Shown here: one piece after another, positions 3,011-63,453 of the stretch | Layout: every line of letters begins with the position of its first letter | Position numbering within the stretch: position 1 is the stretch's first letter | Assembly: GCF_026626665.1 (NCBI RefSeq) | Contig: NZ_JAPNKE010000002.1 | Span: forward strand, 1,421,204-1,485,203 | Reading direction: 5' to 3' | From: Nannocystis pusilla | GTDB taxonomy: Bacteria > Myxococcota_A > Polyangia > Nannocystales > Nannocystaceae | Length of the DNA: 64,000 nucleotides | Program-made: the position numbers and the translations under genes | Notes under the pieces: model-generated | Told to the model about the DNA's origin: nothing | Databases searched by the model: none | What the model saw: only the letters and a program-made list of their open reading frames with translations

Positions 3011-4030
3011 TCACTCCGGCTGGGAGCCGTCGCAGGCGCCCGGGTCGGACTGCCACAGGTCGCAGTAGCGATCGGCCAGGAGGCCGCCGCGGCCGCTGTC
3101 GAAGTCGCCGCAGGTCGGGATGTCGTCGAGGGCGTCGAAGCAGAGCGGGTACTCGTAGGGGACGCCGGCGTCGTCGAGCATCTTGAGGCGCCGCTGATCG
3201 CCGACACAGACCGCGCCGTCCGGGCCCCACTCGGCCTCGATACCCCAGTTCTGCAGGGTCAGGGTCGCGGGGCTCTGGATCGCCGGGCTGAGGCCGTCGA
3301 ACACGTCGATCGGCGTGCCGGTGAAGGTGTGCGGGGTGCCGTCGCCGCAGTAGTCGGCGCGGGCCAGCCGCGTGCACGCCTGGTGGTGGTCGGCGAGGGA
3401 GACGCCGCCGACGGTGGCCCAGGGGCGATAACCCCACTCGACGCACTTGGCGAGCACGGCGTCGCGGCAGGCGAAGGTGACGACGCTGGCGTCGTCGTTG
3501 CGGTCGCCGGTGGCGCCGTCCCACCAGTTGGCGATGGCGATCGCCTGGGTCGGCTGACCGAGGTGGTCGTAGCAGAGGCTGGACCAGGTGCCGGCCTCCA
3601 CGTCCTGCACCGCGATGTCATAGAACCACACGTCGCCGTCGGGGTCGGCCGGGTCGAGGAAGATGTCGTCGAAGCGCAGGACGTAGGTGTCGGTGCCGGC
3701 CTCGAGGTTGAGCAGCGAGCCGATGAGGTCGTCGCCGCTCACCTGAACCGGAGTGCCGTCGACGACCATGGTGGCCGAGAAGCTGCTGCCGTTGAGGTTG
3801 ATGCCGTTGAGGTTGATCCCGTTCATGGTCCAACCGTTCATGCGCATCCCGTTGAGGTTGATCCCGTTCATGCGCATGCCGTTGAACTGCGTCCCGTTCA
3901 TCTGAGCGGAGTTCAACTCGAGTCCGTTACCGACGTCGCTTCGCAGCGTAACCGCCGTTTGAACGTCGTTATCGACGACATCACAGGCCACAACCGAACC
4001 GACCAGTGCCAGCCAAATCCCTCGAGTCAT
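3011..4030 (-). CDS. ADYC-domain lipoprotein with N-terminal NG pentapeptide-like repeats
   Basis: ATG at 4030 gives MTRGIWLALVGSVVAC (signal peptide plus lipobox-like VVAC). Repeats NGINL/NGMRM/NGWTM follow. The C-terminal Cys-rich domain contains the RADYCGDG motif. Confidence 0.6.
   Translation of the reverse strand: MTRGIWLALVGSVVACDVVDNDVQTAVTLRSDVGNGLELNSAQMNGTQFNGMRMNGINLNGMRMNGWTMNGINLNGINLNGSSFSATMVVDGTPVQVSGDDLIGSLLNLEAGTDTYVLRFDDIFLDPADPDGDVWFYDIAVQDVEAGTWSSLCYDHLGQPTQAIAIANWWDGATGDRNDDASVVTFACRDAVLAKCVEWGYRPWATVGGVSLADHHQACTRLARADYCGDGTPHTFTGTPIDVFDGLSPAIQSPATLTLQNWGIEAEWGPDGAVCVGDQRRLKMLDDAGVPYEYPLCFDALDDIPTCGDFDSGRGGLLADRYCDLWQSDPGACDGSQPE
3780..3900. repeat. Coding 15-nt tandem repeats (ccgttgaggttgatg-like) encoding the NG pentapeptide-like repeats of the ADYC lipoprotein
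   Basis: Direct nucleotide periodicity visible at 3781-3900. Confidence 0.7.
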
Positions 4031-17295: not shown

Positions 17296-17358
17296 GCGGG
17301 CGAGGGCGACGCTCCCCGCGTGCCCCGAGCGGACGCGCGGCCCGGCGGTCGATGGCCG

Positions 17359-17435
17359 CGAGGACATGTCCGTGAGGATATGCTCGGAGGACATGCACTC
17401 GAGAGCCTGTTCATGAGGACATGCTCTCGAGTGCC
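17359..17435. repeat. Cluster of four GAGGACATGYNC units (GGACATGTCC-core family)
   Basis: Intergenic, between mqnD and the convergent ABC ATPase gene. Confidence 0.6.
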
Positions 17436-17459
17436 TGTAGCGATGGCGACGGGCGGACG

Positions 17460-23513: not shown

Positions 23514-23518
23514 GTTCG

Positions 23519-23588
23519 CGGGCATGCCCGATCGGGCATGTCTGCCAGGGCATGGCTGATGGGGCATGTGCTTCGAGACATGCCCTGA
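23519..23588. repeat. Cluster of GGGCATGCCC / GGGCATGTCT / GAGACATGCCC units (GGACATGTCC-core family)
   Basis: Intergenic, between the convergent EEP and amidohydrolase genes. Confidence 0.6.
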
Positions 23589-23591
23589 GGT

Positions 23592-25389: not shown

Positions 25390-25750
25390 CGCGGAGACGG
25401 GATGTCCCAAAGGCCAGGCAGAGAGCCGGCGCGCCGCGCTTCCCGGATGTCCGAAGGGGCAGGCGATCCACGCGGACGACGAGGGGCGGATCTGCGAGAT
25501 CGAGATGTCCGGAGAGACAGGCGGCCGCGGCCGGAGCGCGCGCGAGGATGTCCGGAGAGACAGGGGGCCGCGGACGGAGCGCGCGCGGGATGTTCGGAGA
25601 GACAGGCGGCCGCGGCCGGAGTGCGCGCGAGATGTCCGGAGAGACAGGCGGACGCGGCCGGAGCGCGCGAGATGTCCGGAGAGACAGGCGGCCGCGGCCG
25701 GAGCGCGCGCGGGATGTCCGGAGAGACAGGCCGGTGGGGGTGACTGCGAG
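25390..25750. repeat. Tandem array of ~8 units of ~43 nt (GATGTCCGGAGAGACAGGCGGCCGCGGCCGGAGCGCGCGCGAG)
   Basis: Direct periodicity read at 25502-25735, with degenerate copies from 25395. There are no unique spacers, so this is not a CRISPR array. The unit is related to the GGACATGTCC family. Confidence 0.8.
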
Positions 25751-25856: not shown

Positions 25857-27425
<1,569 letters not shown>

Positions 27426-38395: not shown

Positions 38396-38419
38396 GCCGC
38401 GCCCGTGCGTGAGAGGCGT

Positions 38420-38445
38420 GACCGCCAGGACATGTCCTGGCGGTC
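38420..38445. repeat. Perfect 26-bp palindrome GACCGCCAGGACATGTCCTGGCGGTC
   Basis: Lies 25 nt after the PBP stop, in the gap between convergent genes. GGACATGTCC core. Confidence 0.85.
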
Positions 38446-38654: not shown

Positions 38655-38715
38655 GGGCCGTTCGGACATGTCCGAACGGCCCTGCGTGAGCGGGCATGTC
38701 CATCGGGACATGCCG
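38655..38715. repeat. Perfect 28-bp palindrome GGGCCGTTCGGACATGTCCGAACGGCCC followed by the imperfect palindrome CGGGCATGTCCATCGGGACATGCCG
   Basis: Read directly; the element ends ~7 nt before the ACAD stop. Confidence 0.85.
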
Positions 38716-41347: not shown

Positions 41348-43405
41348 ATGGCGACGAACGAAGGGAGCCGCGACTCCGGCCAGGCTGGCGAGGATCGATC
41401 GGTGCCGCGGTTGACCGCGGTCATCGTGGATCCTCCGGACTCGCTCCCGCCGACGCCCGTGGTCTCGCACGAGCTGGGCGCCGACGACGACCTCGCAGAG
41501 GAGTATGAGGCAGCGCTCGAGAACCAGGTCTCGGCGGCCCACTTCTCGATCGAGCTCGGACGCCCGTCCGGCGAGGTCGAGCTCGACGGGCAGCCGACGA
41601 GCGTGGACGGCGAGCCCCAGGCCGAAGACGAGGACACCGTCGAGCGCACCGCCGCCAAGAGCCTCAAGGCCAAGGCGACGGCGGCCAAGCGCGACGCGCT
41701 GTTCGGCCAGGTGCTGGCCGACCGCTACCGGATCCTCGACCTCATCGGCAAGGGCGGGATGGGCAAGGTCTACCTCGCCGAGCACGTGGCGCTCGGCAAG
41801 AAGGTGGCCGTCAAGGTCCTGAACCCGGCCTACACCAACCGCCCCGACCAGGTGAAGCGGTTCCTCCGCGAGGCCCGGGCGGCGTCGACGATCGGCCACG
41901 AGAACGTCATCGACATCACCGACTTCGGCGCGATGCCCAACGGCCAGGTGTTCTTCGCCATGGAGCACCTGCAGGGCGAGGACCTCGGCAAGATCCTCAA
42001 GAAGGGGCCGATGTCGTGGGCGCGGGCCCGCCGGGTGCTGCTGCAGATCTGCCGCGCGCTGCAGGCCGCCCACGCGCACGGGATCATCCACCGGGACATG
42101 AAGCCGGAGAACGTCTTCCTGATCCAGCGCAACGGGATCCGCGACTTCGTCAAGGTGCTCGACTTCGGGATCGCCAAGTTCCTCGAGGAGAACCGCGACG
42201 GCGGCACGAACCCGCTGACGCAGGTGGGCGCGCTGATCGGCACGCCCGAGTACATGGCGCCGGAGCAGATCCACGGCGACCCGGCCGACCAGCGCATGGA
42301 CATCTATGCGGTCGGCTGCATCCTCTATCAGCTGCTCACCGGCAACCTCCCGTTCACCGACAAGACGATGTACGGGGTGCTGTCGCAGCAGGTGAACGCC
42401 AAGCCGGTGCCGCCGCGGCAGCTGGCGCCCGAGGCCGACATCCCGGTCGAGGTCGAGGCGGTCATCCTGAAGGCGATGGAGAAGGACAAGACGCAGCGTT
42501 ACCAGACGATGGGCGAGCTGATCGAAGCCATCGTCGCGACGCCGCGCGGGGCCGCCGGGGACGTCGGGCGGACCACCACGACCAACCTCGAGGCGGCGGC
42601 CCAGGCGGCGCGCCTGGCCGTCGGGGTCAGCATGCCGGCGGGCGTGGCCGTGCCCAACCCGGTCACGCCGGACGACTCGTTGCTGACGCAAGGACTCAGC
42701 AGCGCGTCGGGGCTGCGGCCGACGTCGCTGTCGCTGCCGTGGCGCGGCGGGACGATGGACGCGCAGATGTTGTCGCGCCTGGTGATCGGCCTCGGCGCGG
42801 CGGTGCTGGTGCTGGTGGTCGGCCTGGTGTGCGCGCTCAGCCGCAGCGACGATCCGAAGCCGCAGCCGGTCGACAAGCCCAGCGAGGTCGCGGCGGTCAC
42901 GGCCGGCTCGCCCGAGGCGCCGAAGCCGGTCGAGACGCCGGAGACGAAGATCGAGGCGCCGCCGGAGACGAAGGTCGAGCCGACGCCGGAGCCGAAGAAG
43001 GCCGACGACGAGCCGATCGTGGTCGACGACGAGGCGAAGAAGGACGCGGGCAAGAAGGCCACCGAGCCCAAGAAGACGACCACGGTCAAGAAGAGCGAGC
43101 CGTCCGCGCCGAAGGGCGAAGAGGTGTCGGCCAACTGGCCCGAGGTGCTGGGGCCGATGGAGCGCTCGCAGGCGCTGAAGAGCTACCGCGCCGAGTTCGA
43201 GACCTGCCGGACGATCAGCACGCCGAAGGGCAAGACCTACAAGCTGCGGCTCAAGGTCGACGGCCCGAAGGGGCGCGTGACCGAGGCGACGTCCGACGAC
43301 ACGAGCGCGGAGGCGAAGTGCCTGGCGCGGGCCTTCAAGACCAAGGTCCGGTTCGTCAACACCCGCAAGACGCCGCAAGAGTTCACGATCGTCGTGCCGC
43401 TCTGA
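41348..43405 (+). CDS. Ser/Thr protein kinase with a single TM helix and Lys/Pro/Glu-rich extracytoplasmic region
   Basis: GKGGMGKVY, HRDMKPENV, DFGIAK, GTPEYMAPE. TM segment LVIGLGAAVLVLVVGLVCAL. Confidence 0.8.
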   Translation: MATNEGSRDSGQAGEDRSVPRLTAVIVDPPDSLPPTPVVSHELGADDDLAEEYEAALENQVSAAHFSIELGRPSGEVELDGQPTSVDGEPQAEDEDTVERTAAKSLKAKATAAKRDALFGQVLADRYRILDLIGKGGMGKVYLAEHVALGKKVAVKVLNPAYTNRPDQVKRFLREARAASTIGHENVIDITDFGAMPNGQVFFAMEHLQGEDLGKILKKGPMSWARARRVLLQICRALQAAHAHGIIHRDMKPENVFLIQRNGIRDFVKVLDFGIAKFLEENRDGGTNPLTQVGALIGTPEYMAPEQIHGDPADQRMDIYAVGCILYQLLTGNLPFTDKTMYGVLSQQVNAKPVPPRQLAPEADIPVEVEAVILKAMEKDKTQRYQTMGELIEAIVATPRGAAGDVGRTTTTNLEAAAQAARLAVGVSMPAGVAVPNPVTPDDSLLTQGLSSASGLRPTSLSLPWRGGTMDAQMLSRLVIGLGAAVLVLVVGLVCALSRSDDPKPQPVDKPSEVAAVTAGSPEAPKPVETPETKIEAPPETKVEPTPEPKKADDEPIVVDDEAKKDAGKKATEPKKTTTVKKSEPSAPKGEEVSANWPEVLGPMERSQALKSYRAEFETCRTISTPKGKTYKLRLKVDGPKGRVTEATSDDTSAEAKCLARAFKTKVRFVNTRKTPQEFTIVVPL

Positions 43406-44712
43406 TGCGCGTCGCGTTCAGCACGCTCGGCTGTCGCCTCAACCAGTTCGAGTCCGACGCCCTCGAGCAGATGGCCCGCGCGGCCGGCCACACCGTGGTC
43501 GACGCCGAGGCCGCGCCCGAGGTCGTGATCGTCAACACCTGCACGATCACCCACGAGGCCGACGCCGACGCGCGCCAGCACGTGCGCCGGGCCGCGCGCG
43601 CCGGGGCGAAGGTGGTGGTCACCGGCTGCTGGGCGACGGCCGCCCCCGCCGAGGCGGCGGCGCTGCCCGGGGTGACGCTGGTGGTCGGCAACCGCGAGAA
43701 GGAGCGGCTGTTCGAGGTGCTCGGAGAGACATGTTCGGAAGGACATGTCCCGGAGATCCACGTGGCCCCGGTCGACCTGCTGCGGCGCGTCCGCGCGGCC
43801 CGCTTGCGCCCGGCCGCCGACCCGCGGCGCAGCCGGGCGTACCTGAAGATCCAGGACGGCTGCGACTACCGCTGCAGCTTCTGCATCGTGCCGCAGGTGC
43901 GCGGGCGCAGCGTGAGCGTGGCGCCCGCGGAGGCGCGGGCGCAGCTGGACGAGCTGGTCGCCGCGGGGGTGCCCGAGGTGGTGCTCACCGGGGTCCACCT
44001 CGGGATCTACGGCCGCGACCTGCGGCCGCGCAGCTCGTTGTCGTCGCTCGTCGCGGAGCTGCTGCCGCAGCTCGGGTCGGCGCGGCTGCGCCTCGGCTCG
44101 GTCGATCCGCACGAGGTCGACGATGACCTGGTGACGCTGTTGGCGAGCGACCCGCGGCTGTGTCCGTACCTCCACTTGCCGGTGCAGAGCGGCGACGACG
44201 ACACGCTGCGGCGCATGCGGCGGGCGCACACCGCCGCCGACCTGCAGGCGCTGGTGCCTCGCCTGGCCGCGGCGGTGCCGGGGATCGGCGTGGGCACCGA
44301 CGTGATCGTCGGCTTCCCGGGCGAGTCGGAGGAGGCGTTCGCGGCCACGCACGCGCTGCTGGCCGCGCTGCCGCTGGCGTACCTGCACGTGTTCGCCTAC
44401 TCGCCGCGCGCGGGCACCGACGCCGCCTGTCTCTCGGGTCAGGTCGACGCGGCGGTCAAGCAGCGGCGCGGGATGGCGTTGCGGGCGCTGTCGGCGGCGA
44501 AGCAGGAGGCGTTCGCGGCGGCGCAGATCGGGCGAACCCTGCCGGTGGTGATGCACCGGTCGCGACACCGGCGTACAGGGCTGCTGGTGGGTCGGGCCGG
44601 CAACGGCTTGACGGTGCTGGCGGCCGGCGACGACGCGCTGCTGGGCCGGGCGACCCAGATCGAGGTCGAGCGCGCCGAGGGGCCGCTCGCGCTCGGTCGA
44701 CTGCTCGCGTGA
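43405..44712 (+). CDS. MiaB-like tRNA methylthiotransferase (MtaB-type MTTase: N-terminal MTTase domain plus radical SAM)
   Basis: The ATG overlaps the kinase TGA (TGATG). CDYRCSFCIVP radical SAM motif; N-terminal VNTCTITHEAD. Confidence 0.8.
   Translation: MRVAFSTLGCRLNQFESDALEQMARAAGHTVVDAEAAPEVVIVNTCTITHEADADARQHVRRAARAGAKVVVTGCWATAAPAEAAALPGVTLVVGNREKERLFEVLGETCSEGHVPEIHVAPVDLLRRVRAARLRPAADPRRSRAYLKIQDGCDYRCSFCIVPQVRGRSVSVAPAEARAQLDELVAAGVPEVVLTGVHLGIYGRDLRPRSSLSSLVAELLPQLGSARLRLGSVDPHEVDDDLVTLLASDPRLCPYLHLPVQSGDDDTLRRMRRAHTAADLQALVPRLAAAVPGIGVGTDVIVGFPGESEEAFAATHALLAALPLAYLHVFAYSPRAGTDAACLSGQVDAAVKQRRGMALRALSAAKQEAFAAAQIGRTLPVVMHRSRHRRTGLLVGRAGNGLTVLAAGDDALLGRATQIEVERAEGPLALGRLLA
43724..43760. 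repeat. GGACATGTCC-family element (GAGACATGTTCGGAAGGACATGTCCCGGAG) lying in frame inside the MTTase coding sequence
   Basis: Encodes ...GETCSEGHVPE... in the linker between the MTTase N-domain and the radical SAM core. Confidence 0.6.
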
Positions 44713-44990
44713 GTGCGGCGCGATGCGTGACTTCGCTGCGGAGGAGCCTCGGGCGAGTACCGACGCTCACGCGCCGGTTCGGTTCGAACTTCCGGACAGG
44801 TGATGCGCCACGAGCCGCGTTTGCCCGCCGATCCCTGTTCCGGACAGGCAGGGCGCGGGACAGGTGATGCGCCACGAGCCGCGTTTTGTCCGCCGATCCC
44901 TGTTCCGGGACAGGCAAGGCGCGGCCGTTCACGAGCGTTCGAGTCGGTCTGAACTTCGGGACAGGTGATGCGCCTCGCCGGTCAGCCCCA
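44713..44990. repeat. Tandem array of ~65-nt units (GGACAGGTGATGCGCCACGAGCCGCGTTTGCCCGCCGATCCCTGTTCCGGACAGGCAGGGCGCG), two full and two partial copies
   Basis: Direct repeat read at 44792-44985. The units contain a GAACTTCGGGACAGG module that is also present at 57618. Confidence 0.75.
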
Positions 44991-45767
44991 GAACCAGGCT
45001 TCGGCCTCGCACCAGAGCTCGCGCGGCGGGCGGTAGTCGTAGTGGACCGGCACGTGGATGGCGTCGACGCGGCGGGCCAGCTCGCGCAGCGCGACCGCGT
45101 CGGGGATGGCGGCGAGCTCTGCGACCGTCGGTTCGGTCGGGATGTCGCAGTCTTCGGGGGCGACGATCGCTTTGCCGGTGAAGGGGTTCGTGGCCACGAC
45201 CTCGCCCTCGCGCACGTGCCGGGTCTTCGGGAACAGCATCCGCGGGCCGAAGTTGATCCACATGGCGATCAGGTCGCGGTCGTCGATCTGTTCGGCCGCT
45301 CGCGTCACCTGCAGCGCGACGTTGCCGAGCGGCAGCGGCCGCGGCGGCTCGGCGTCGGCGCCTCGCAGCACCCCGGCGGCGACGAGGTCGTGCCACAGCG
45401 GCGTGCCGGCGTCGCAGTACAGGGCGCCCGCGAGGAGGTAACCGTTCTCGTGACCGACGGAGGGCCGGTCTTCGGGCGGCTCGCGGCCGAGGACCTCCGA
45501 GTCGACGAAGCGCCACTCCTTCGGCGGCGCGCCCTTGAAGGCGCGGTTGTTGGCGGCGAACTGCGGGTGCGCGGTGATCGGCAGGCGGTAGGTGAAGCGC
45601 CGCGCGATCAGGATGTCGAGCACGCGCCCGTGGGTGAAGCCGCAGTCGAAGCCGGCCTGGAAGGCGTGGAGCGCGAAGAACAGGTCGCGATGGTCGTCGC
45701 CGCGGTGGTGCTCGTGAAGGACGCGCACCGAGTCGGCGACGGTGTCTTCGATCTCGTGCTGGGACAT
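44982..45767 (-). CDS. Hypothetical protein (261 aa)
   Basis: Clean ORF with Myxococcales-like codon usage. No motif I can assign. Confidence 0.4.
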   Translation of the reverse strand: MSQHEIEDTVADSVRVLHEHHRGDDHRDLFFALHAFQAGFDCGFTHGRVLDILIARRFTYRLPITAHPQFAANNRAFKGAPPKEWRFVDSEVLGREPPEDRPSVGHENGYLLAGALYCDAGTPLWHDLVAAGVLRGADAEPPRPLPLGNVALQVTRAAEQIDDRDLIAMWINFGPRMLFPKTRHVREGEVVATNPFTGKAIVAPEDCDIPTEPTVAELAAIPDAVALRELARRVDAIHVPVHYDYRPPRELWCEAEAWFWG

Positions 45768-45804
45768 GCGAGATCAGCCGGACGGACGTCGGCGCCGAGC
45801 TGGC

Positions 45805-45826
45805 CGCGAGGACATGTCCTGGCGGC
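45805..45826. repeat. Near-perfect palindrome CCGCGAGGACATGTCCTGGCGG
   Basis: Intergenic, between the hypothetical gene and the MBL hydrolase gene. Confidence 0.6.
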
Positions 45827-45834
45827 CAGTCGGC

Positions 45835-48539: not shown

Positions 48540-48590
48540 GGCAGGCCTCGCGGGGGCAGGAGAGAGGGCGACGGCGACCGCAGGGACAGG

Positions 48591-50234: not shown

Positions 50235-50966
50235 TCAGGCGCGCGGCGGTCGGGCGCCGAAGATGGCGGTGCCGACGCGGACCATGGTCGCGCCCTCTTC
50301 GATCGCAACCTCGAAGTCGGCGCTCATGCCCATGGAGAGGTGGACCAGGTCGACGCCGGGGCGCGCGATCGCGGCTTCACGGCGCAGCAGCTCGCGCAGG
50401 CGGGCGAAGTACGGGCGAGTCTGCTCCGGCTCGCCTTCGGGGGGAATCGCCATGAGGCCGACGCAGCGCAACTGGGGACGGGCGGCGATCTGGTCGAGCA
50501 GCGCGGGCAGTTCGGTGGTGGCGACGCCGGCCTTCTGGGCCTCGTCGCCGACGTTGACCTCGACGAGCAGCTCGAGCGGGGTAGTGGCGCCTCGACCCGC
50601 GCGCAGGCGCTCGACCTCGCGGGCGAGCTCGTCGACGAGCCCCGGGCGATCGACGGTGTGGACGAGGGCGCCGACGGCGACGACCTTGCGCACCTTGTTG
50701 GTCTGCAGCGGGCCGATGAAGTGCCAGCGCGGCGGGGTGACCTCCGCCGCGACGAGCTCGGCCTTGGCCACCAGCTCCTGGGCGTAGTTCTCGCCGAGGT
50801 CGCCGAGGCCGGCCCGGCAGGCGGCGATCACGGCCTCGGCGGGCTGCTTCTTGCTGACGCCGATGAGGGTGGGCACGGGACCGGGGCCGCGGCGGGCGAC
50901 GGCGGCGGCGATCCGGGCGCGGACGGCGGCGAGGTTGGCGGCGATGTCGTCTGGCGTCAAGGACAT
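50235..50966 (-). CDS. yggS: YggS-family pyridoxal-phosphate homeostasis protein
   Basis: LIGVSKKQP (PLP lysine) and the C-terminal HLSMGMS.DF motif. Confidence 0.8.
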   Translation of the reverse strand: MSLTPDDIAANLAAVRARIAAAVARRGPGPVPTLIGVSKKQPAEAVIAACRAGLGDLGENYAQELVAKAELVAAEVTPPRWHFIGPLQTNKVRKVVAVGALVHTVDRPGLVDELAREVERLRAGRGATTPLELLVEVNVGDEAQKAGVATTELPALLDQIAARPQLRCVGLMAIPPEGEPEQTRPYFARLRELLRREAAIARPGVDLVHLSMGMSADFEVAIEEGATMVRVGTAIFGARPPRA

Positions 50967-51009
50967 GTCTTAAAGGGCCTGCGCGAAGAGACAGGCAGAG
51001 TCGGCGGGG

Positions 51010-52017
51010 TCACTGCGGCAGGCAGGCGCTCGGGGCGGCGGCGCCGGCGAAGGTCGGGCCCATGTCGCGGTAGGTGTGGGCGCGCCAGAAGTCGCGCGGG
51101 TCCTCGGCGAGCTGGAGGGTGCGGTCGTCGCCGCTGCCGCTGACGAGGATCGCGGTCTCGAGTCCGTCGTGGCGCAGCGGGAACGACAGGGCCAGGCGAT
51201 CGCCGCGCTGGCGGTAGGTCAGGGTCTCGGTGGTCCACTCGTCGTAGTCGCCGCGGTGGTGCCAGCCGACGCCGCGGCCGTCGATCGCCTGGGGCTGGAA
51301 TTGGTAGATCGAGAAGCCCATGCCGCCGGTGGCGTAACGGACCTCCTCGCCCCACAGGCGCCCGCCGATCCGCTCGGCGGCGGCGAGGGGCGCGGGGGTA
51401 CCTGGCTCTCGGGGCAGGTCGGTGGCGAGGGGCTCGGGCGCACCTGGCTCTCGGGGCAGGTCGGCGGCGGCGGCGAGGGCACCCGTCACCCGCGACGAGT
51501 CGCCGGCGAGGGACCCGGGGGTGGAGGCTCCTGGCTTTTGGGGCAGGTCGCCGGCGGGGTCGAAGCAGGGCGCGCCGGTGGCGGCCGCCGGGGCCTTGAA
51601 GTAGCGGGCGCCGCCGGGCTCGCGCGGGTCGTCGTCGAGGACCAGCCAGGTGCGACCGCCCTGCTCCTCGAGGCGATAGGGGACGCGGCGCCGCTCGCCG
51701 GTCTTGCGGAAGGTGAGCTCGAGGTGGCCGCCTTCGGCGCGGTAGTCGAAGCTGTGGGTGTTGGTGAGGCCGACCTTGCCGTAGCGGTAGAGGCCGAAGC
51801 CGCCCTCGTGGAAGAAGTAGAAGCGCATGCGGTCGCCCTCGGCGAGGGCGTCCCAGCGGTGCCAGACGCCCAGCAGGTCGGGGTCGACGGCGTCGGCGTC
51901 GCAGGTGTCCTCGGGGACAGGCTCGCCGGCGTCGGGCGCCCAGGCGGCGATGAACGGGGCCGACAGCGCGAGGACCGCGAGGAGGTAGACGCTCGAGAGG
52001 CAGAAGGGGCGCCGCAT
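51010..52017 (-). CDS. Secreted hypothetical protein with internal DLPREPG tandem repeat
   Basis: ATG at 52017 gives MRRPFCLSSVYLLAVLALSAPFIAAWA (signal peptide). The coding tandem repeat at ~51395-51490 encodes DLPREPGAPEPLATDLPREPGTPAPLA. Confidence 0.45.
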   Translation of the reverse strand: MRRPFCLSSVYLLAVLALSAPFIAAWAPDAGEPVPEDTCDADAVDPDLLGVWHRWDALAEGDRMRFYFFHEGGFGLYRYGKVGLTNTHSFDYRAEGGHLELTFRKTGERRRVPYRLEEQGGRTWLVLDDDPREPGGARYFKAPAAATGAPCFDPAGDLPQKPGASTPGSLAGDSSRVTGALAAAADLPREPGAPEPLATDLPREPGTPAPLAAAERIGGRLWGEEVRYATGGMGFSIYQFQPQAIDGRGVGWHHRGDYDEWTTETLTYRQRGDRLALSFPLRHDGLETAILVSGSGDDRTLQLAEDPRDFWRAHTYRDMGPTFAGAAAPSACLPQ

Positions 52018-52928: not shown

Positions 52929-53010
52929 GCGAGGCGCGCGGACGGGACGCGATCGGGGCCGAGGCGCGGCGGTCGGTTCAGGCTCAGGCAGACGCGACGG
53001 GTGTCTTTGA

Positions 53011-53046
53011 GGACAGGGCCCATGGGACATGCCCGATGGGTCAGGC
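53011..53046. repeat. GGACAGGGCCCATGGGACATGCCCGATGGGTCAGG, a GGACATG-family element
   Basis: Intergenic, between the convergent maf and lipoprotein genes. Confidence 0.55.
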
Positions 53047-53047
53047 G

Positions 53048-55615: not shown

Positions 55616-56338
55616 TCATACCATGCCGCCGTTGATGCCGATCACCTGACCGGTGATGTACGCGGCGGCGTCGCTGGCGAGGAAGGCGACCAGCGCGGCG
55701 ACCTCGGGGGCGGTGCCGAGCCGCTGCGCGGGGATCCGCGGCATCACGTGGTCGAGCGGGACGTCTTTGATCATGTCGGTGTCGACGAGGCCCGGCGACA
55801 CCGCGTTGACGGTGACGCCCTTGCGGGCGAGCTCGAGCGCCAGCGATTTGGTCGCGCCGATGACGCCGGCCTTGGCCGCGGCGTAGGCGACCTGCCCGCG
55901 GTTGCCGAGCTGGGCCGAGACGGAGCTCATGGTGATGATCCGGCCCCACTTGCGCCGCACCATCGGCATGATCACCGGGCGGGTCACGTTGTAGAAGCCG
56001 CCCAGGCTGGTCCGAAGGACAGCTTCCCAGTCGGCCCGCTCGAGCGCGGGGAACGGGGCGTCGCGGGCGATCCCGGCGTTGTTGACGAGGACCCCGAGCG
56101 GCCGCGGGTCGGCGAGGATGGCGTTCATCGCCGCGTCGGCGGCCGCGTCGTCGCCGACGTCGAAGCGGCTGAGGACGACCTCGCCGCCGGCGGCGCGGAT
56201 CCGGGCGGCGACGGCCTCGGCGGCGGCGTCGTCGCTGCGGTAGTTGAGGATGATGGGGTGGCCGGCGGCCGCGAGGGCCTCGGCGATCGCGGCGCCGATC
56301 CCTCGACTGGCGCCGGTGACGAGCGCGCGTGGCTTCAT
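55616..56338 (-). CDS. fabG: 3-oxoacyl-ACP reductase
   Basis: TGASRGIG, NNAG and YAAAKAG (YxxxK) SDR motifs. Confidence 0.8.
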   Translation of the reverse strand: MKPRALVTGASRGIGAAIAEALAAAGHPIILNYRSDDAAAEAVAARIRAAGGEVVLSRFDVGDDAAADAAMNAILADPRPLGVLVNNAGIARDAPFPALERADWEAVLRTSLGGFYNVTRPVIMPMVRRKWGRIITMSSVSAQLGNRGQVAYAAAKAGVIGATKSLALELARKGVTVNAVSPGLVDTDMIKDVPLDHVMPRIPAQRLGTAPEVAALVAFLASDAAAYITGQVIGINGGMV

Positions 56339-56784
56339 GCGGGGCTCCCTGCGGAGGTGCTGGATGGGGCGGTGGAGACGACGGATAGCACGGCCTCGGC
56401 CAGCGGCTGGCCGCGGCGCGTGACGGCGGCGCGGTACTCGGCCATGGCGCCGGCGAACACGCGGGTGGCGACGATCTGCAGCGGGTCGCCGACGGCGAGG
56501 TGCTCGGCGTGCAGGTCGAAGTTGCGGCAGGCGGCGATGAGGCCGAGCGCCGGCGGCTGATGGTCGGCGCGCGCGCGCAGGCCGGCGAACGCGGCGATCG
56601 CCTGGGCCATGTACTCGAGCAAGACCGAGGCGTGGACCCGGCCGTCGATGACGAACAGGTTGTCGGGGCGGACCTGCGCCGCGCAGGTGATGTCGTCGGC
56701 GCCGGCGGCCACGACCTCGTCGAGCAGCAGCATCGGCGGGCGCTGCGGGACCAGCTCGGCCACCGGCGGGAAGGCGGCGGTCAT
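56335..56784 (-). CDS. Hotdog-fold 3-hydroxyacyl-ACP dehydratase (FabZ/ApeI-like)
   Basis: 150 aa with MLLLDEV...HASVLLEYMAQ context. ATGA overlaps on both sides. Confidence 0.5.
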   Translation of the reverse strand: MTAAFPPVAELVPQRPPMLLLDEVVAAGADDITCAAQVRPDNLFVIDGRVHASVLLEYMAQAIAAFAGLRARADHQPPALGLIAACRNFDLHAEHLAVGDPLQIVATRVFAGAMAEYRAAVTRRGQPLAEAVLSVVSTAPSSTSAGSPA

Positions 56785-57584
56785 GCCCCGGCTCCGAGTG
56801 TGCACTGCCAGCCGACCGCGAGGTGCGGCTCGAGGGCGATCCGCGCCGGGGCGCCGGCGGCCAGCGCCTCGACCAGGGCGAGCGCGGCGGCGCACGGGTT
56901 TTCGGCCAGGGCGGCCGGGACCGGACGTGGCGCCGGGAGCATGTCGCTGGGGCCATGTTCGAGGCGACATGTCCTCGCGGGCATGTCGCCGGGGACAGGC
57001 GCCGACAGGGCGAAGGCGGCGGCGAACGGGTCCCAGCGGCGGCCGGCGGCCAGCGGCTCGGGCAGCGGCTCCTCGGCGATCACGAGCACCACGTCGCCCT
57101 CGCCGGCGGCCACGAGGGCGGCGCACTCGACGAGGCCCATGGCGAGGGTGCTGCGGCCGGCCGACAGCGCGGCGTTGCCGGCCCGGTTGCCGGTGGCGAT
57201 CGAGACGTAGCCGGCGGCCGTGTTGTGGACGCTGTTGTGGAACTTGGTCGGCGACAGCGGCTCGCCGGCGACGAGCAGGGCGGCGAGCAGGTCGAGGGTG
57301 GTGCGGATCTCGCCGTAGACGGAGCCGTAGACGAGGGTGGCCGCGGCCCGGTCGACGCCGCCGTCCTGCAGCGCCTGGGCCGCGACCTCGGCGGCCATGC
57401 GGGTGAGCAGGCTGGTGCGCCGGCGCATCATCGGCGGCAGCAGCTCGGCCTTCGGGGCGGAGGGCTCGGTCGGCGGCGCCTGTCCTTCGGGCCAGGTGTC
57501 GGGCCGGGCCCGCCAGGCGGCGAGGTCGGGGTAGCCTGGGGTCCAGAAGCCGAGGCCGCGGACGGTGAAGGCGAGCGCGCTCAT
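56781..57584 (-). CDS. Beta-ketoacyl synthase N-terminal-domain protein without catalytic Cys (chain-length-factor-like, PF13723-like)
   Basis: MSALAFTVRGLGFWTPGY...TKFHNSVHNTAAGYVSI matches the KS-N family found in aryl-polyene-type clusters. It contains an in-frame GGACATG-repeat insert. Confidence 0.45.
   Translation of the reverse strand: MSALAFTVRGLGFWTPGYPDLAAWRARPDTWPEGQAPPTEPSAPKAELLPPMMRRRTSLLTRMAAEVAAQALQDGGVDRAAATLVYGSVYGEIRTTLDLLAALLVAGEPLSPTKFHNSVHNTAAGYVSIATGNRAGNAALSAGRSTLAMGLVECAALVAAGEGDVVLVIAEEPLPEPLAAGRRWDPFAAAFALSAPVPGDMPARTCRLEHGPSDMLPAPRPVPAALAENPCAAALALVEALAAGAPARIALEPHLAVGWQCTLGAGA
56931..57010. repeat. GGGCATGTCGC...GCGACATGTCCTCGCGGGCATGTCGCC repeat cluster lying in frame inside the KS-N-like CDS
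   Basis: Encodes ...PGDMPARTCRLEHGPSDMLPAP... on the minus strand. Confidence 0.55.
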
Positions 57585-57617
57585 GCCGGGCCTCGGACGA
57601 GGCGTGGGGTCAGAGCT

Positions 57618-57729
57618 GAACTTCGGGACATGGCCCGGAAGACCTGTACGAAAGAGCAGCCGCACGGACAGAGGCGCCGCCGGGGAGGTGTCGTCGGGGA
57701 CATGTCCCGGGAGACCTGTCGGAAGGTGC
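57618..57729. repeat. Two GGACATG-family units (GAACTTCGGGACATGGCCCGGAAGACCTGTACG and GGGGACATGTCCCGGGAGACCTGTCGGAAGG)
   Basis: Intergenic, between the KAS stop (57730) and the KS-N-like start (57584). Confidence 0.65.
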
Positions 57730-58911
57730 TCATGCGGGGCCTCCGACGAGGACGCTGCAGTTGCTGCCGCCGAACGCGAACGAGTTGCTGAGCGCGGCGC
57801 GGGTGGGGACGTCGCGGCGGGCGGTGACCACGTCGACCGCGAGGGTGTCGTCGAGCGGGTCGGCGCCGACGCTGGCGGGCAGGTAGCGGCCAGCGATGGC
57901 GTCGATCACGAAGGCGACCTCGGTGGCGCCGGCGGCCCCGAGCATGTGCCCGGTGTAGCCCTTGGTGGCGACGACCGCGGGCGCGGTGGCGCCGGCGAAC
58001 ACGGCCCGGATCGCCGCGCTCTCCATGCTGTCGTTCTGCTTGGTGCCGGTGCCGTGGGCGTTGACGTGGTCGACGTCGGCGGCGGAGAGGCCCGCGTGCC
58101 GGAGCGCGCGCTCCATCGCCAGGCGCGCGCCGAGGCCCTCGGGGTGCGGGCTCGTCATGTGGTAGGCGTCGGAGCTCTCGCCGACGCCGAGCAGGCGGGC
58201 CGGGCCTTCACCTGTCCGTTCGACCAGGAGCAGCGCGGCGCCCTCGCCGATGTTGATGCCGGCGCGCTCGCTCGAGAACGGGCGACATGGCCGCGAGGAC
58301 AGGACCTCGAGCCCGGCGAAGCCGCGCACGGTGAGGCGGCACAGGCTGTCGACGCCGCCGACCAACACCGCGTCGCACAGGCCGGCGGCGAGCAATCGCT
58401 GGGCCGAGGCGAACACCTTGGCGGACGAGGAGCAGGCGGTCGAGACGACGTAGGCCGGGCCGCCGAGGCCGCCGCCGAGGACGCGAGCGACGTGCAGGAC
58501 GGCGTCGAGGGCGTGCGAGGTCTCGACGTCGTAGTCGGCCGGGAGGGCGCCGCCGTGGGCCTGCGCGTGGGCGTAGGCCGTCTCGCTGGCCTCGATGCCG
58601 CCGGTGCTGGTGCCGAGGACGACGGCGACGCGGTCCGAGCCCCAGCGGGCGCGCGCGCGATCCAGCGGGGCCTGCAGCTCGGCCAGCGCGACGGCGGCGA
58701 TCCGCGTCTGCCGGGTGTCGCGGACCGGGCCGAGGAAGCCGGGCAGCGGCGGCAGCGGGGTCGGGATGGCGCCGACGACCGCGTCGAGCTCGAACTCGGC
58801 GGGGCACGGGCCGAGGCCGGAGCGACCGGCACGCAAGGCCGCGAGCACCGCGGCGGTGCTGTCGCCCATGCCGTTGCACAGGGCCATGGCGGTGATGGGG
58901 TACGGCTGCAT
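57730..58911 (-). CDS. Beta-ketoacyl-ACP synthase (FabF/FabB-like KAS I/II)
   Basis: STACSSS active-site Cys, HVNAHGTGT and GHMLGAAG His/Gly motifs. Confidence 0.8.
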   Translation of the reverse strand: MQPYPITAMALCNGMGDSTAAVLAALRAGRSGLGPCPAEFELDAVVGAIPTPLPPLPGFLGPVRDTRQTRIAAVALAELQAPLDRARARWGSDRVAVVLGTSTGGIEASETAYAHAQAHGGALPADYDVETSHALDAVLHVARVLGGGLGGPAYVVSTACSSSAKVFASAQRLLAAGLCDAVLVGGVDSLCRLTVRGFAGLEVLSSRPCRPFSSERAGINIGEGAALLLVERTGEGPARLLGVGESSDAYHMTSPHPEGLGARLAMERALRHAGLSAADVDHVNAHGTGTKQNDSMESAAIRAVFAGATAPAVVATKGYTGHMLGAAGATEVAFVIDAIAGRYLPASVGADPLDDTLAVDVVTARRDVPTRAALSNSFAFGGSNCSVLVGGPA

Positions 58912-58935
58912 GACGGCGAGGGCGGGCGCGGCCGA

Positions 58936-60193
58936 TCAGAGGCCGGGGGCCGGGAAGGCGCGCAGGAACTCGCGCACGCGGCCGCGGTGGACCTCGCAGC
59001 GGGCGTCGTCAGCGTTCTCGACGGCGAGGGCGACGCCGTCGGCGATCAGGTCGGCGACGACCGGCATGTGATGGACCTCGATGCCGCGCGAGGTGATGGC
59101 GGCCAGGCCGATGCGCAGGCCCGAGGGGTCGAACGGCTTGCGCGGGTCGAACGGGATGGCGTTGGCGTTGAGCTCGATGCCGCAGCGGTTGAGCACGCGC
59201 GCGACGTGGCGGCCGCCCTGGCCGGTGGGCGTCAGATCGAGGAGCAACAAGTGGTTGTCGGTGCCGCCCGACACGAGGACGTGGCCGCGGGCGATCAGGG
59301 CCTCCGCGAGGGCCTGGGCGTTGGCGACGATCTGATGCGCATAGTCGCGGAAGCTCGGCTGCAGCGCCTCGCGGAAGGCGACGGCCTTGGCGGCGGTGGT
59401 GTGGCAGTGCGGGCCGCCCTGCAGGCCGGGGAACACGGCCTTGTCGATCGCGGCCGCGTGCTCGGCCTTGCTGAGGATGAGGCCGCCGCGCGGGCCGCGG
59501 AGCGTCTTGTGCGTGGTGGTGGTGACGACGTCGGCGTGCGGCACGGGGCTCGGGTGCGCGCCGCCGGCGACGAGGCCGGCGATGTGCGCGATGTCGGCCG
59601 CGAGCCAGGCCCCGACCTCGCGCGCGATCGCGGCGAAGCCGGCGAAGTCGAGCTGGCGCGGGTAGGCCGAGTGACCGACCCAGATGAGCTTGGGGCGGTT
59701 GGCGAGCGCGAGGCTGCGGACCTCGTCGAGGTCGATGCGGTGGTCGTCGCGGCGGACGCCGTACTGGACGGCCTTGTAGTAGATGCCGGTGGCGCTGACC
59801 TTCCAGCCGTGGGTGAGGTGACCGCCCGCGGGGAGGGCCAGCCCCATGATGGTGTCGCCGGTCTGGCACAGGGCGAGCAGCGCGGCGAGGTTGGCCGGCG
59901 ATCCGCTGTAGGGCTGGACGTTGGCGTGATCGGCCCCGAACAGCTCGCGCGCGCGGGCGATGGCGAGGGACTCGATCGGGTCGACGAAGTCCATGCCCTC
60001 GTAGTAGCGCTTGCCCGGGTAGCCCTCGGCGTACTTGTTGGTGAGGCTGGTGCCGGTCGCGGCGAGCACGGCCTTCGACACGTATCTCGCTGGCGATGAG
60101 GCGCAGGCTGTCGCGCTGGCGCGCGTCCTCCTGCTCGATCAGCGCGAAGATCTCGGGGTCGGCGGCGGAGAGCTCGGGATCGCGGGCGTGCAC
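58936..60193 (-). CDS. glyA: Serine hydroxymethyltransferase, apparent 2-nt deletion near 60070-60075
   Basis: [17 protein letters not shown]-lysine motif and [16 protein letters not shown]. The N-terminal 40 aa ([25 protein letters not shown]) are in the frame of ORF 59009-60193, with GTG at 60193. Confidence 0.75.
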
Positions 60194-63412: not shown

Positions 63413-63453
63413 TTTGGACATGCTCATGCAGACATGTCCGAAGAGTCTCCTTA
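63413..63453. repeat. TTGGACATGCTCATGCAGACATGTCCGAAGAGTC, two GGACATG-family units
   Basis: Intergenic, downstream of the kinase gene. Confidence 0.6.

What the first reader, a model, noticed from the sequence alone, without database searches (positions are those of the whole stretch)
44713..44990. Second tandem array (~65-nt units) immediately 3' of the MTTase gene
Two full and two partial copies of GGACAGGTGATGCGCCACGAGCCGCGTTT(T)G(T)CCGCCGATCCCTGTTCCGG(G)ACAGGCARGGCGCG. Each unit is an imperfect hairpin (CCGGACAGG...CCTGTTCCGG). The GAACTTCGGGACAKG module is shared with the element at 57618. This links the two tandem arrays and the dispersed palindromes into one element superfamily.
Basis: seen in the sequence. 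Interest (0 to 1): 0.55.

Follow-up and report, generated by a model that had tools for sequence, protein, structure and literature searches.

The report
Local tandem duplication in Nannocystis spacer
The ~65-base tandem repeat after the methylthiotransferase gene is real, but it is an ordinary duplication found only at this locus and in this lineage, in a fast-changing spacer between two convergent genes of a Nannocystis genome, and not a hairpin element or a copy of a dispersed repeat family.

Summary
The array is real. There are two head-to-tail units of 64 and 66 nt (44794-44857 and 44858-44923; 94% alike). A third, partial copy of the first 16 nt sits at 44959-44974. A 15-nt 5' extension is shared by copies 1 and 3.

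The array lies in the 269-nt spacer between the convergent 3' ends of the MTTase gene and a 261-aa gene of unknown function, in a Nannocystis genome close to strain RBIL2. The orthologous spacers carry 0 to 3 copies of block A (GAACTTCGGGACAGGTGATGCGCC):
- none in N. exedens or in the relative L014;
- one degenerate copy in N. punicea;
- one in RBIL2;
- two in the close relative L013, which lacks the 64-nt duplication.

Profiles of the unit find no other copy in about 160 kb of Nannocystis DNA. A 20-mer of block A occurs in 185,579 reference genomes only at the RBIL2 ortholog. The units fold no better than shuffled sequence (z +0.6 to -1.0). They do not align significantly with the 42-nt array or with the GGACATGTCC palindromes (p 0.35-0.8).

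One link holds: an exact 15-mer, CTGAACTTCGGGACA, is shared with the spacer at 57616 (p about 0.001).

Verdict: an ordinary variable-number tandem duplication. The superfamily idea is only partly supported. The more interesting things are side observations: a genus-wide GGACATGTCC family at gene 3' ends, and a MIRU-like insertion.

The parts
43405..44712 (+). MTTase gene (context). It overlaps the stop codon of the upstream Ser/Thr kinase gene.
   Evidence: Pfam UPF0004 (6.9e-21) and Radical_SAM (2.8e-19). Translation. The same protein is found on a Logan contig.
44713..44778 (.). Non-repeated 5' part of the spacer.
   Evidence: Partly alignable with L013 (GCTGCGGAGGAGCC).
44779..44793 (+). 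5' extension of copy 1 (TCGGTTCGAACTTCC).
   Evidence: Family D1 of the repeat finder. Coordinates.
44794..44857 (+). Tandem unit 1, 64 nt. It consists of the block A core GGACAGGTGATGCGCC followed by block B (44810-44857). Block B contains the short inverted repeat CCTGTTCCGGACAGG at 44834-44848.
   Evidence: TRF..
44858..44923 (+). Tandem unit 2, 66 nt, 94% identical to unit 1. This is the copy missing from the close relative L013. Its inverted repeat CCTGTTCCGGGACAGG is at 44899-44914.
   Evidence: Alignment A1.
44924..44943 (+). Unique linker (GCCGTTCACGAGCGTTCGAG), conserved in L013.
44944..44958 (+). 5' extension of copy 3 (TCGGTCTGAACTTCG). The 15-mer shared with 57616-57630 spans 44949-44963.
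44959..44974 (+). Third, partial copy (block A core only), 8 nt from the stop codon of the convergent gene. This is the ancestral copy: it is present in L013 and, in degenerate form, in N. punicea.
44982..45767 (-). Convergent 261-aa gene of unknown function (context). It has no Pfam match. Orthologs occur in Nannocystis, with more distant homologs in Myxococcus, Pyxidicoccus and some actinomycetes.
57616..57630 (+). The only related sequence elsewhere in the window: an exact 15-mer, CTGAACTTCGGGACA, inside the lineage-specific insert between the KS and CLF genes.
   Evidence: E = 0.011; p = 0.001.

Best explanation
The array is a locus-specific tandem duplication of variable copy number (a minisatellite) in the poorly constrained spacer between the convergent 3' ends of the MTTase gene and a 261-aa gene, in a Nannocystis genome.

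Inferred history:
1. The ancestral spacer carried one block A (GAACTTCGGGACAGGTGATGCGCC) next to the stop codon of the 261-aa gene.
2. An older duplication of about 45 nt (block A plus its 5' extension) produced copies A1 and A3. The close relative L013 shares this step.
3. A later head-to-tail duplication of the 64-nt segment [A core + B] happened only in the window's lineage. The two copies have since diverged by 4 changes.

The likely mechanism is replication slippage or unequal recombination, helped by the short GGACAGG and CCGG direct repeats. This step is inferred, not shown.

The duplication itself probably has no dedicated function. The sequence is most likely just part of the 3' untranslated and termination zone of the two genes.
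For: Six orthologous spacers show copy numbers from 0 to 3 and lengths from 71 to 269 nt, while the flanking genes stay collinear. Alignment A1 shows that the window equals the L013 architecture plus exactly one extra 64-nt unit.

The A and B profiles and a blastn search of the whole spacer find nothing but the orthologs in 136-162 kb of Nannocystis DNA. The 20-mer TTCSGGACAGGTGATGCGCC occurs only once in a related genome among the 185,579 reference genomes, at the orthologous RBIL2 spacer. The other six hits are single chance matches in unrelated organisms.

There is no excess folding energy, no covariation, no Rfam family, no sigma-70 promoter or terminator consensus, and no match in plasmids or phages.

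The conservation of block A is what neutrality predicts. Third-codon-position identity to L013 and RBIL2 is 91-93%, which predicts about 2 changes in 24 nt; 0 to 2 are seen. In N. punicea (79% third-position identity) the block is already degenerate, with a 3-nt deletion.

The units are 64 and 66 nt long, not multiples of 3, so they do not encode a repeated peptide.
Against: The exact 15-mer shared with the inserted element at 57616 (p about 0.001) is not explained by purely local duplication. Block A persists in several lineages while the sequence around it cannot be aligned, which could reflect constraint. Only about 160 kb of related DNA, and no complete genome of the window's own strain, could be searched with sensitive profiles. 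Functional neutrality is inferred from the absence of signals, not shown.
Confidence: 0.6

Rival explanations
1. The array is a degenerate member of the genus-wide GGACATGTCC family found at gene 3' ends. It would do the same job as the canonical hairpin clusters in convergent spacers (ending or insulating transcription, or stabilising the 3' end), using GGACAGG/CCTGT words instead of GGACATGTCC.
For: It lies in the same class of location. GGACATG density is 9.5 per kb in convergent spacers, 0 in divergent spacers and 0.41 in coding sequence. N. exedens has three GRCATGTC units with a 14-nt period at the orthologous position, and that spacer folds with z = -2.8. CTTCGGGGCATGTCC in N. exedens resembles CTTCGGGACAGGTGA here. 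Block B contains a CCTGTTCCGGGACAGG inverted repeat similar to the TGTCC-CCGC-GGACA hairpins of N. radixulma and N. pusilla. ACAGGTC is a recurrent partner of CATGTCC in canonical elements.
Against: There is no GRRCATG core in the focal spacer. The units fold no better than shuffles, whereas canonical elements reach z -4.7 to -7.6. The GGACAGG spacings are 48, 16, 50 and 51 nt, not 14. The unit does not align significantly with any canonical array (p 0.35-0.80). GGACAGG is not enriched outside this locus.
Confidence: 0.15
2. The array is a remnant, later amplified, of a small MIRU-like mobile element. It would belong to the same family as the element inserted between the KS and CLF genes at 57585-57729, with block A plus its 5' extension being one end of that element.
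For: There is an exact 15-mer, with weaker similarity just beyond it. The 57.6-kb element is a true insertion. It is absent in N. radixulma, N. pusilla and a distant MAG, where the two genes overlap by ATGA, and it is flanked by a 24-nt duplication. Like the focal array, it is arranged in tandem and varies in length between close relatives (145 nt against 175 nt). MIRUs are 40-100-bp intergenic units that vary in copy number (PMC3184786, PMC12548453).
Against: The similarity stops at 15 nt. The 64-nt unit itself does not align with the insert (p = 0.64). No flanking duplication or terminal repeats are visible around the focal blocks. There is no open reading frame coupled to the neighbouring genes. 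Block A sits at the same orthologous position in several lineages, so it has not moved recently. No further copies were found in the DNA available.
Confidence: 0.15
3. Block A is a cis-regulatory site, and the array multiplies it. It could be a binding site for a DNA- or RNA-binding protein, or an ECF-sigma-type promoter (GAAC, 16 nt, CGYC) driving an antisense or small RNA.
For: GAACTT matches the -35 box of RpoE/AlgU-type promoters (from general knowledge, not tested here). One L013 copy reads GAAC-N16-CGTC. The block is retained while its flanks turn over.
Against: The would-be spacer is as conserved as the boxes. The -10 position reads CGCC in most copies. There is no gene or conserved open reading frame downstream. 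The conservation is compatible with neutrality at this divergence. The middle copy lacks the GAACTT part altogether.
Confidence: 0.1

Closest known systems
Intergenic variable-number tandem repeats (bacterial minisatellites, e.g. the VNTR loci of Mycobacterium tuberculosis)
   Same: Head-to-tail units of 40-100 bp in non-coding DNA. Copy number differs between close relatives (0-3 copies of block A; the 64-nt unit is present once or twice). The units diverge slowly after duplication.
   Different: This is a single locus, not one of many typed loci. Variation within a population has not been measured, only between a handful of related genomes.
MIRU (mycobacterial interspersed repetitive units; Supply et al. 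1997, as summarised in PMC3184786 and PMC12548453)
   Same: Unit size, tandem arrangement, high-GC host, and intergenic position. A neighbouring element in the same window (57585-57729) behaves like a MIRU and shares a 15-mer with block A.
   Different: MIRUs are dispersed (about 40-50 copies). They insert at start codons inside operons and carry an open reading frame coupled to the flanking genes. The focal array lies between convergent genes, its unit lengths are not multiples of 3, and no other copies were found.
REP/BIME elements of enterobacteria and pseudomonads
   Same: They lie in extragenic space at gene 3' ends, often between convergent genes, and are often clustered.
   Different: REPs are 21-65-nt imperfect palindromes with stable stem-loops, present in tens to hundreds of copies (PMC3184786). 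The focal units have no excess stability and are confined to one locus.
Nannocystis GGACATGTCC elements at gene 3' ends
   Same: The same class of spacer, shared GGACA/TGTCC/CCGG words, and a canonical cluster at the orthologous site in N. exedens.
   Different: Canonical members have a GRRCATGYYC core, fold far better than shuffles, and show a 14-nt period or long palindromic arms. The focal array has none of these features.

Membership tests
Tandem repeat / VNTR | At least two head-to-tail copies with high identity | tested here: met
   TRF gives period 64, 2.0 copies, 94% matches, score 234. The pairwise alignment matches at 62 of 66 positions.
Tandem repeat / VNTR | Copy number differs between related genomes at the same locus | tested here: met
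   The six orthologous spacers carry 0, 0, one degenerate, 1, 2 and 3 copies of block A. The 64-nt duplication is found only in the window.
Dispersed repeat family (REP- or MITE-like) | Multiple copies at unrelated loci | tested here: not met
   nhmmer with the A and B profiles, and blastn, over 136-162 kb of Nannocystis DNA found only orthologs plus one 15-nt match. The 20-mer scan of 185,579 genomes found only the RBIL2 ortholog. The complete genome of this strain could not be searched.
Dispersed repeat family (REP- or MITE-like) | Stable stem-loop or terminal inverted repeats | tested here: not met
   Fold z-scores are +0.14, -0.98, +0.64 and -0.26 for the units, and +0.16 and -0.39 for the whole spacer. 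The inverted repeats found are short and 79-100% complementary, as expected in 72% GC DNA.
Nannocystis GGACATGTCC 3'-end elements | GRRCATGYYC palindromic core | tested here: not met
   Neither 3' end of the focal spacer has a GRRCATG or CATGYYC match, whereas 34 of 82 other 3' ends do.
Nannocystis GGACATGTCC 3'-end elements | Location downstream of a gene's 3' end (convergent or co-directional spacer, never divergent) | tested here: met
   The spacer lies between convergent stop codons at 44712 and 44982. For the family distribution.
Nannocystis GGACATGTCC 3'-end elements | Folds much better than shuffled sequence (hairpin with a 4-nt loop) | tested here: not met
   Canonical elements give z -6.6, -7.6, -4.8, -4.8 and -4.7. 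The focal units give z between +0.6 and -1.0.
Nannocystis GGACATGTCC 3'-end elements | 14-nt spacing of cores in arrays | tested here: not met
   Spacing between intergenic CATG sites peaks at 14 nt (13 of 33). The focal GGACAGG spacings are 48, 16, 50 and 51 nt.
MIRU-like element | Inserted within an operon, with an internal open reading frame overlapping the stop and start codons of the flanking genes | tested here: not met
   The focal spacer lies between convergent genes and the unit lengths (64 and 66 nt) are not multiples of 3. By contrast the 57585-57729 element meets this feature.
Any Rfam RNA family | Match at or above the gathering score | tested here: not met
   No match in the window at gathering threshold. 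The permissive search found only a chance match to a microRNA model, at 23 bits against a 51-bit cut-off.
ECF-sigma promoter | GGAAC -35 box, 16-17-nt non-conserved spacer, CGT-type -10 box, and a transcript starting downstream | tested here: inconclusive
   The boxes were read by eye from the six copies. GAAC is present in 5 of them, the -10 position is CGCC in most and CGTC in one, and the spacer is fully conserved. No tool for ECF promoters and no transcript data were available.

The most novel reading that the evidence does not exclude
The array could be an amplified fragment of a previously undescribed family of short intergenic elements specific to the genus Nannocystis. This family would also include the GGACATGTCC hairpins and period-14 arrays at gene 3' ends, and a MIRU-like unit that inserted between two translationally coupled polyketide-type genes while preserving the coupling. 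On this reading, the 15-mer CTGAACTTCGGGACA is a shared functional or terminal block of a mobile unit.
Probability: 0.2. Interest if true: 0.45.

Novelty: new member of a known kind. Interest (0 to 1): 0.2.

Why it matters
The array itself matters little. It is one more variable intergenic tandem repeat, possibly usable as a strain marker for Nannocystis.

The value of the check is mostly negative. It removes a proposed hairpin element and a proposed superfamily link that do not survive alignment, folding controls or comparison with orthologs.

The surroundings are of more interest. Nannocystis genomes carry a strongly enriched palindromic word at gene 3' ends that appears to be undescribed. 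One element in the window shows MIRU-like behaviour outside the mycobacteria. Both could be studied with transcript-end mapping in a genus valued for its natural products.

Tried and rejected
- **RNA structure.** I folded the whole spacer, each unit and the orthologs on both strands, and none beat shuffles. The consensus fold of four copies showed no covariation. Rejected.
- **Known RNA families.** None were found.
- **Sigma-70 promoter or intrinsic terminator consensus.** None were found.
- **Coding repeat.** Rejected, because the units are 64 and 66 nt and so read in different frames.
- **Dispersed family.** The A and B profiles, blastn, and a 20-mer scan of the reference genomes found only orthologs.
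- **Plasmid or phage origin.** No match was found.
- **Purifying selection on block A.** Rejected as unproven, because the identity seen is what 91-93% identity at neutral sites predicts.
- **Metagenome scan with GCCAGGACATGTCCTGGC**, meant to gather more Nannocystis-type hairpins. It returned 24 contigs of 38-73% GC, many of them ordinary terminators with flanking A and T runs.
- **Strand test for the canonical hairpins** (sense against antisense stability). The result was 13 against 21, so there is no bias and it remains unresolved whether they act in RNA or DNA.
- **Literature.** GGACATGTCC returns only papers on p53 response elements. Nothing was found on intergenic repeats in Nannocystis or other myxobacteria.

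Full report
**What is there.** The window is 71.7% G+C. The finding lies in a 269-nt spacer (44713-44981). On one side is a methylthiotransferase gene (43405-44712, plus strand), which matches UPF0004 and Radical_SAM (translation). On the other side is a convergent 261-aa gene with no Pfam match (44982-45767, minus strand).

Tandem Repeats Finder reports an array at 44794-44924 with period 64, 2.0 copies and 94% matches. Reading the sequence gives this anatomy:
- Unit 1 is 44794-44857 (64 nt). Unit 2 is 44858-44923 (66 nt). They differ by two single-base indels and two substitutions.
- Each unit is a 16-nt core (block A, GGACAGGTGATGCGCC) followed by a 48-50-nt block B.
- After a 20-nt unique linker, a third copy of the A core lies at 44959-44974, 8 nt from the stop codon of the convergent gene.
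- Copies 1 and 3, but not copy 2, are preceded by a related 15-nt extension (TCGGTTCGAACTTCC and TCGGTCTGAACTTCG).

The 16-mer occurs three times exactly. Counting matches with up to 3 mismatches, there are 7 against 1.6 expected from shuffles.

**Where the window comes from, and the orthologous spacers.** A scan of 185,579 reference genomes for the 20-mer TTCSGGACAGGTGATGCGCC gave seven single hits. Six are in unrelated organisms. The seventh is in Nannocystis sp. RBIL2 and lies in the orthologous spacer, between the same two genes. The genome of the window's own strain is not in that collection.

Homologs of the 261-aa protein led to the same locus in four more genomes: N. exedens, N. punicea, a 93%-identical relative (L013) and a 72%-identical relative (L014). 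Gene order is conserved in all of them, but the spacer varies from 71 to 269 nt.
- N. exedens and L014 have no block A.
- N. punicea has a degenerate copy with a 3-nt deletion, next to the stop codon.
- RBIL2 has one copy.
- L013 has two copies (A1 and A3) with one block B between them.
- The window has three copies.

The multiple alignment shows that the window equals the L013 architecture plus exactly one extra 64-nt unit. So two duplication events can be ordered. An older one produced A1 and A3 and is shared with L013. A younger head-to-tail duplication of [A core + B] is private to the window's lineage.

**Is the unit a dispersed element?** No. An nhmmer profile of five A copies, run over 136 kb of Nannocystis DNA, recovers only those copies, the internal copy, and one partial match at 57616-57630 (E = 0.011). 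A profile of block B, and a sensitive blastn of the whole spacer over 162 kb, recover only the orthologous spacers. Nothing was found in the plasmid or phage collections.

In 72% G+C sequence that means little, and the controls bear this out.
- The units give z-scores of +0.14, -0.98, +0.64 and -0.26 against dinucleotide-preserving shuffles.
- The whole spacer gives +0.16 and -0.39.
- A consensus fold of four copies has a covariation term of +0.19 kcal/mol, which is unfavourable, with only 1 of 16 pairs changed on both sides. The RBIL2 copy accounts for most of the broken pairs.
- There is no Rfam family and no consensus promoter or terminator.

**Is block A under selection?** The data do not require it. 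Third-codon-position identity of the adjacent gene is 91% to L013, 93% to RBIL2 and 79% to N. punicea. A neutral 24-mer would then carry about two changes in the close relatives, and 0 to 2 are seen. In N. punicea the block is already degenerate.

**The proposed superfamily.** I tested this with local alignments against 1000 dinucleotide-preserving shuffles.

| Comparison | p |
|---|---|
| 64/66-nt unit vs the 42-nt array at 25.5 kb | 0.35-0.38 |
| 64/66-nt unit vs the period-14 arrays at 23.5 kb and 17.4 kb | 0.80 and 0.37 |
| 64/66-nt unit vs the 57.6-kb spacer | 0.64 |
| Copy 3 with its 5' extension vs the 57.6-kb spacer | 0.001 |

The only significant link is the last one, and it consists solely of the exact 15-mer CTGAACTTCGGGACA. 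So the shared-module observation is right, but it concerns the flank of the repeat and not the repeat unit.

**What the other elements are.** This part is a side result, followed partly.
- **Enrichment.** GGACATG is the most over-represented 7-mer in the window (45 observed against 5.8 expected). GGACATGTCC with up to one mismatch occurs 21 times against 1.9 expected. The enrichment is 8- to 13-fold in loci from five other Nannocystis species. It is absent in Pyxidicoccus and in a distant MAG.
- **Location.** Across three loci with gene calls, the density is 9.5 per kb in convergent spacers, 1.8 in co-directional spacers, 0 in divergent spacers and 0.41 in coding sequence. Of 82 gene 3' ends, 34 have a core within 200 nt, usually 4-40 nt after the stop codon.
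- **Two architectures.** One is a long palindrome with a CATG tetraloop. The other is an array with a 14-nt period (13 of 33 intergenic CATG spacings), in which neighbouring 10-mers pair across a 4-nt loop. Both fold far better than shuffles (z -4.7 to -7.6).
- **Conservation.** Orthologous hairpins keep their pairing through compensatory changes.
- **Unresolved.** A sense-against-antisense stability test showed no bias (13 against 21). Whether these elements act as RNA hairpins or as DNA palindromes is therefore open.

The focal spacer has none of the canonical cores. GGACAGG is enriched only because of this array. N. exedens does carry a canonical period-14 cluster at the orthologous site. 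The most that can be said is that the array occupies the niche where such elements live and is built partly from similar short words.

**The 57.6-kb element.** The partner of the 15-mer lies in a 145-nt spacer between a ketosynthase (KS) gene and a chain-length-factor (CLF) gene. In N. radixulma, N. pusilla and a distant MAG these two genes overlap by ATGA. In the window and in a 97%-identical relative (L017), an insert sits there, flanked by a 24-nt duplication of the gene junction. The insert carries an open reading frame of 50 aa (60 aa in the relative). Its start overlaps the KS stop codon and its stop overlaps the CLF start codon. This is how mycobacterial MIRUs are described (PMC12548453, PMC3184786). 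It leaves a minority possibility that block A is a fragment of such a mobile unit. Against that, the similarity ends after 15 nt.

**Verdict.** The array is a real but ordinary variable tandem duplication, specific to this locus and lineage, in a fast-evolving convergent spacer (confidence about 0.6). The hairpin reading is not supported. The superfamily reading is supported only through one 15-nt block and a shared genomic niche. Interest in the finding itself is low. The genus-wide 3'-end palindrome family and the MIRU-like insert are the leads worth following.

Noticed in passing
window-wide, e.g. 38418-38443, 38655-38682, 45802-45827, 23514-23591, 17350-17445, 52990-53047, 2440-2498, 63416-63445: The palindromic word GGACATGTCC is strongly enriched: GGACATG 45 observed against 5.8 expected, and the 10-mer with up to one mismatch 21 against 1.9. 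It is concentrated just downstream of stop codons (9.5 per kb in convergent spacers, none in divergent ones). It occurs either as a long palindrome with a CATG loop or as a 14-nt-period array whose neighbouring units pair with each other. Fold z-scores are -4.7 to -7.6. Orthologous hairpins in N. exedens keep pairing through compensatory changes. The enrichment is seen in six Nannocystis genomes but not in Pyxidicoccus or a distant MAG. No description was found in the literature searched.
   Followed up: partly
window 57585-57729 (with 57581-57733 for the open reading frame); L017 1423-1605: A lineage-specific insert lies between the KS and CLF genes, which overlap by ATGA in N. radixulma, N. 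pusilla and a distant MAG. It is flanked by a 24-nt duplication of the gene junction. It is made of two related units of about 72 nt containing GGGACATGTCCC and ACAGGTC. It carries a 50-aa open reading frame (60 aa in a 97% relative) with ATGA overlaps at both ends. This matches how MIRUs are described in mycobacteria.
   Followed up: partly
window 25496-25735: A 42-nt tandem array of 5.5 copies (91% matches), with unit GATGTCCGGAGAGACAGGCGGCCGCGGCCGGAGCGCGCGCGG. It lies about 120 nt downstream of the 3' end of the gene at 25857-27425 (minus strand). Fold z is -2.8 on the minus strand. It is not significantly similar to the focal unit (p = 0.35).
   Followed up: partly
window 43727-43760 (inside the MTTase coding sequence); also L004 7736-7760 and L009 11812-11860: Two copies of the GACATGT word, 14 nt apart (AGAGACATGTTCGGAAGGACATGTCCCGGAGATCC), lie inside the coding sequence. 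They fall in the linker between the UPF0004 and Radical_SAM domains (peptide GETCSEGHVPEI) and are conserved in the orthologs.
   Followed up: no
L012 9805-9920 (N. punicea), orthologous to window 45768-45834: The hairpin downstream of the metallo-beta-lactamase-fold gene (CTGGCCGCCAGGACATGTCCTCGCGGCCAG) is tandemly duplicated with a period of about 66 nt in N. punicea only. This is another lineage-specific tandem duplication of a 3' spacer element, similar in scale to the focal one.
   Followed up: no
L015 18947-19114 and L016 18946-19128, orthologous to window 48540-48590: Three copies of a small hairpin, ACATGTCC-CCGC-GGACAG, lie between the Fer2_4 and BFD-like genes in N. radixulma and N. 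pusilla. They use the same words in the opposite (tail-to-tail) arrangement. The window has only a remnant here.
   Followed up: no
window 50952-51009; L009 4280-4354; L012 4700-4767: Upstream of the Ala_racemase_N-family gene there is a conserved element, CCTG(N)CTCTTC..CAGGTCC..AGAGCATGTCC. Here the ATG of the CATGTCC word is the gene's start codon, so not every copy of the word lies at a 3' end.
   Followed up: no
window 55616-60081: A co-directional cluster of KS, chain-length-factor, ApeP-like dehydratase and ketoreductase genes, followed by a flavin-dependent halogenase-like gene in the relatives. This is an aryl-polyene or type II fatty-acid-synthase-like biosynthetic cluster.
   Followed up: no
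window 3789-3901, 26422-26583, 51378-51480: Further tandem repeats reported by TRF (periods of 15/30/45, 66 and 42 nt). All fall inside predicted coding regions, so they probably encode repeated peptides.
   Followed up: no
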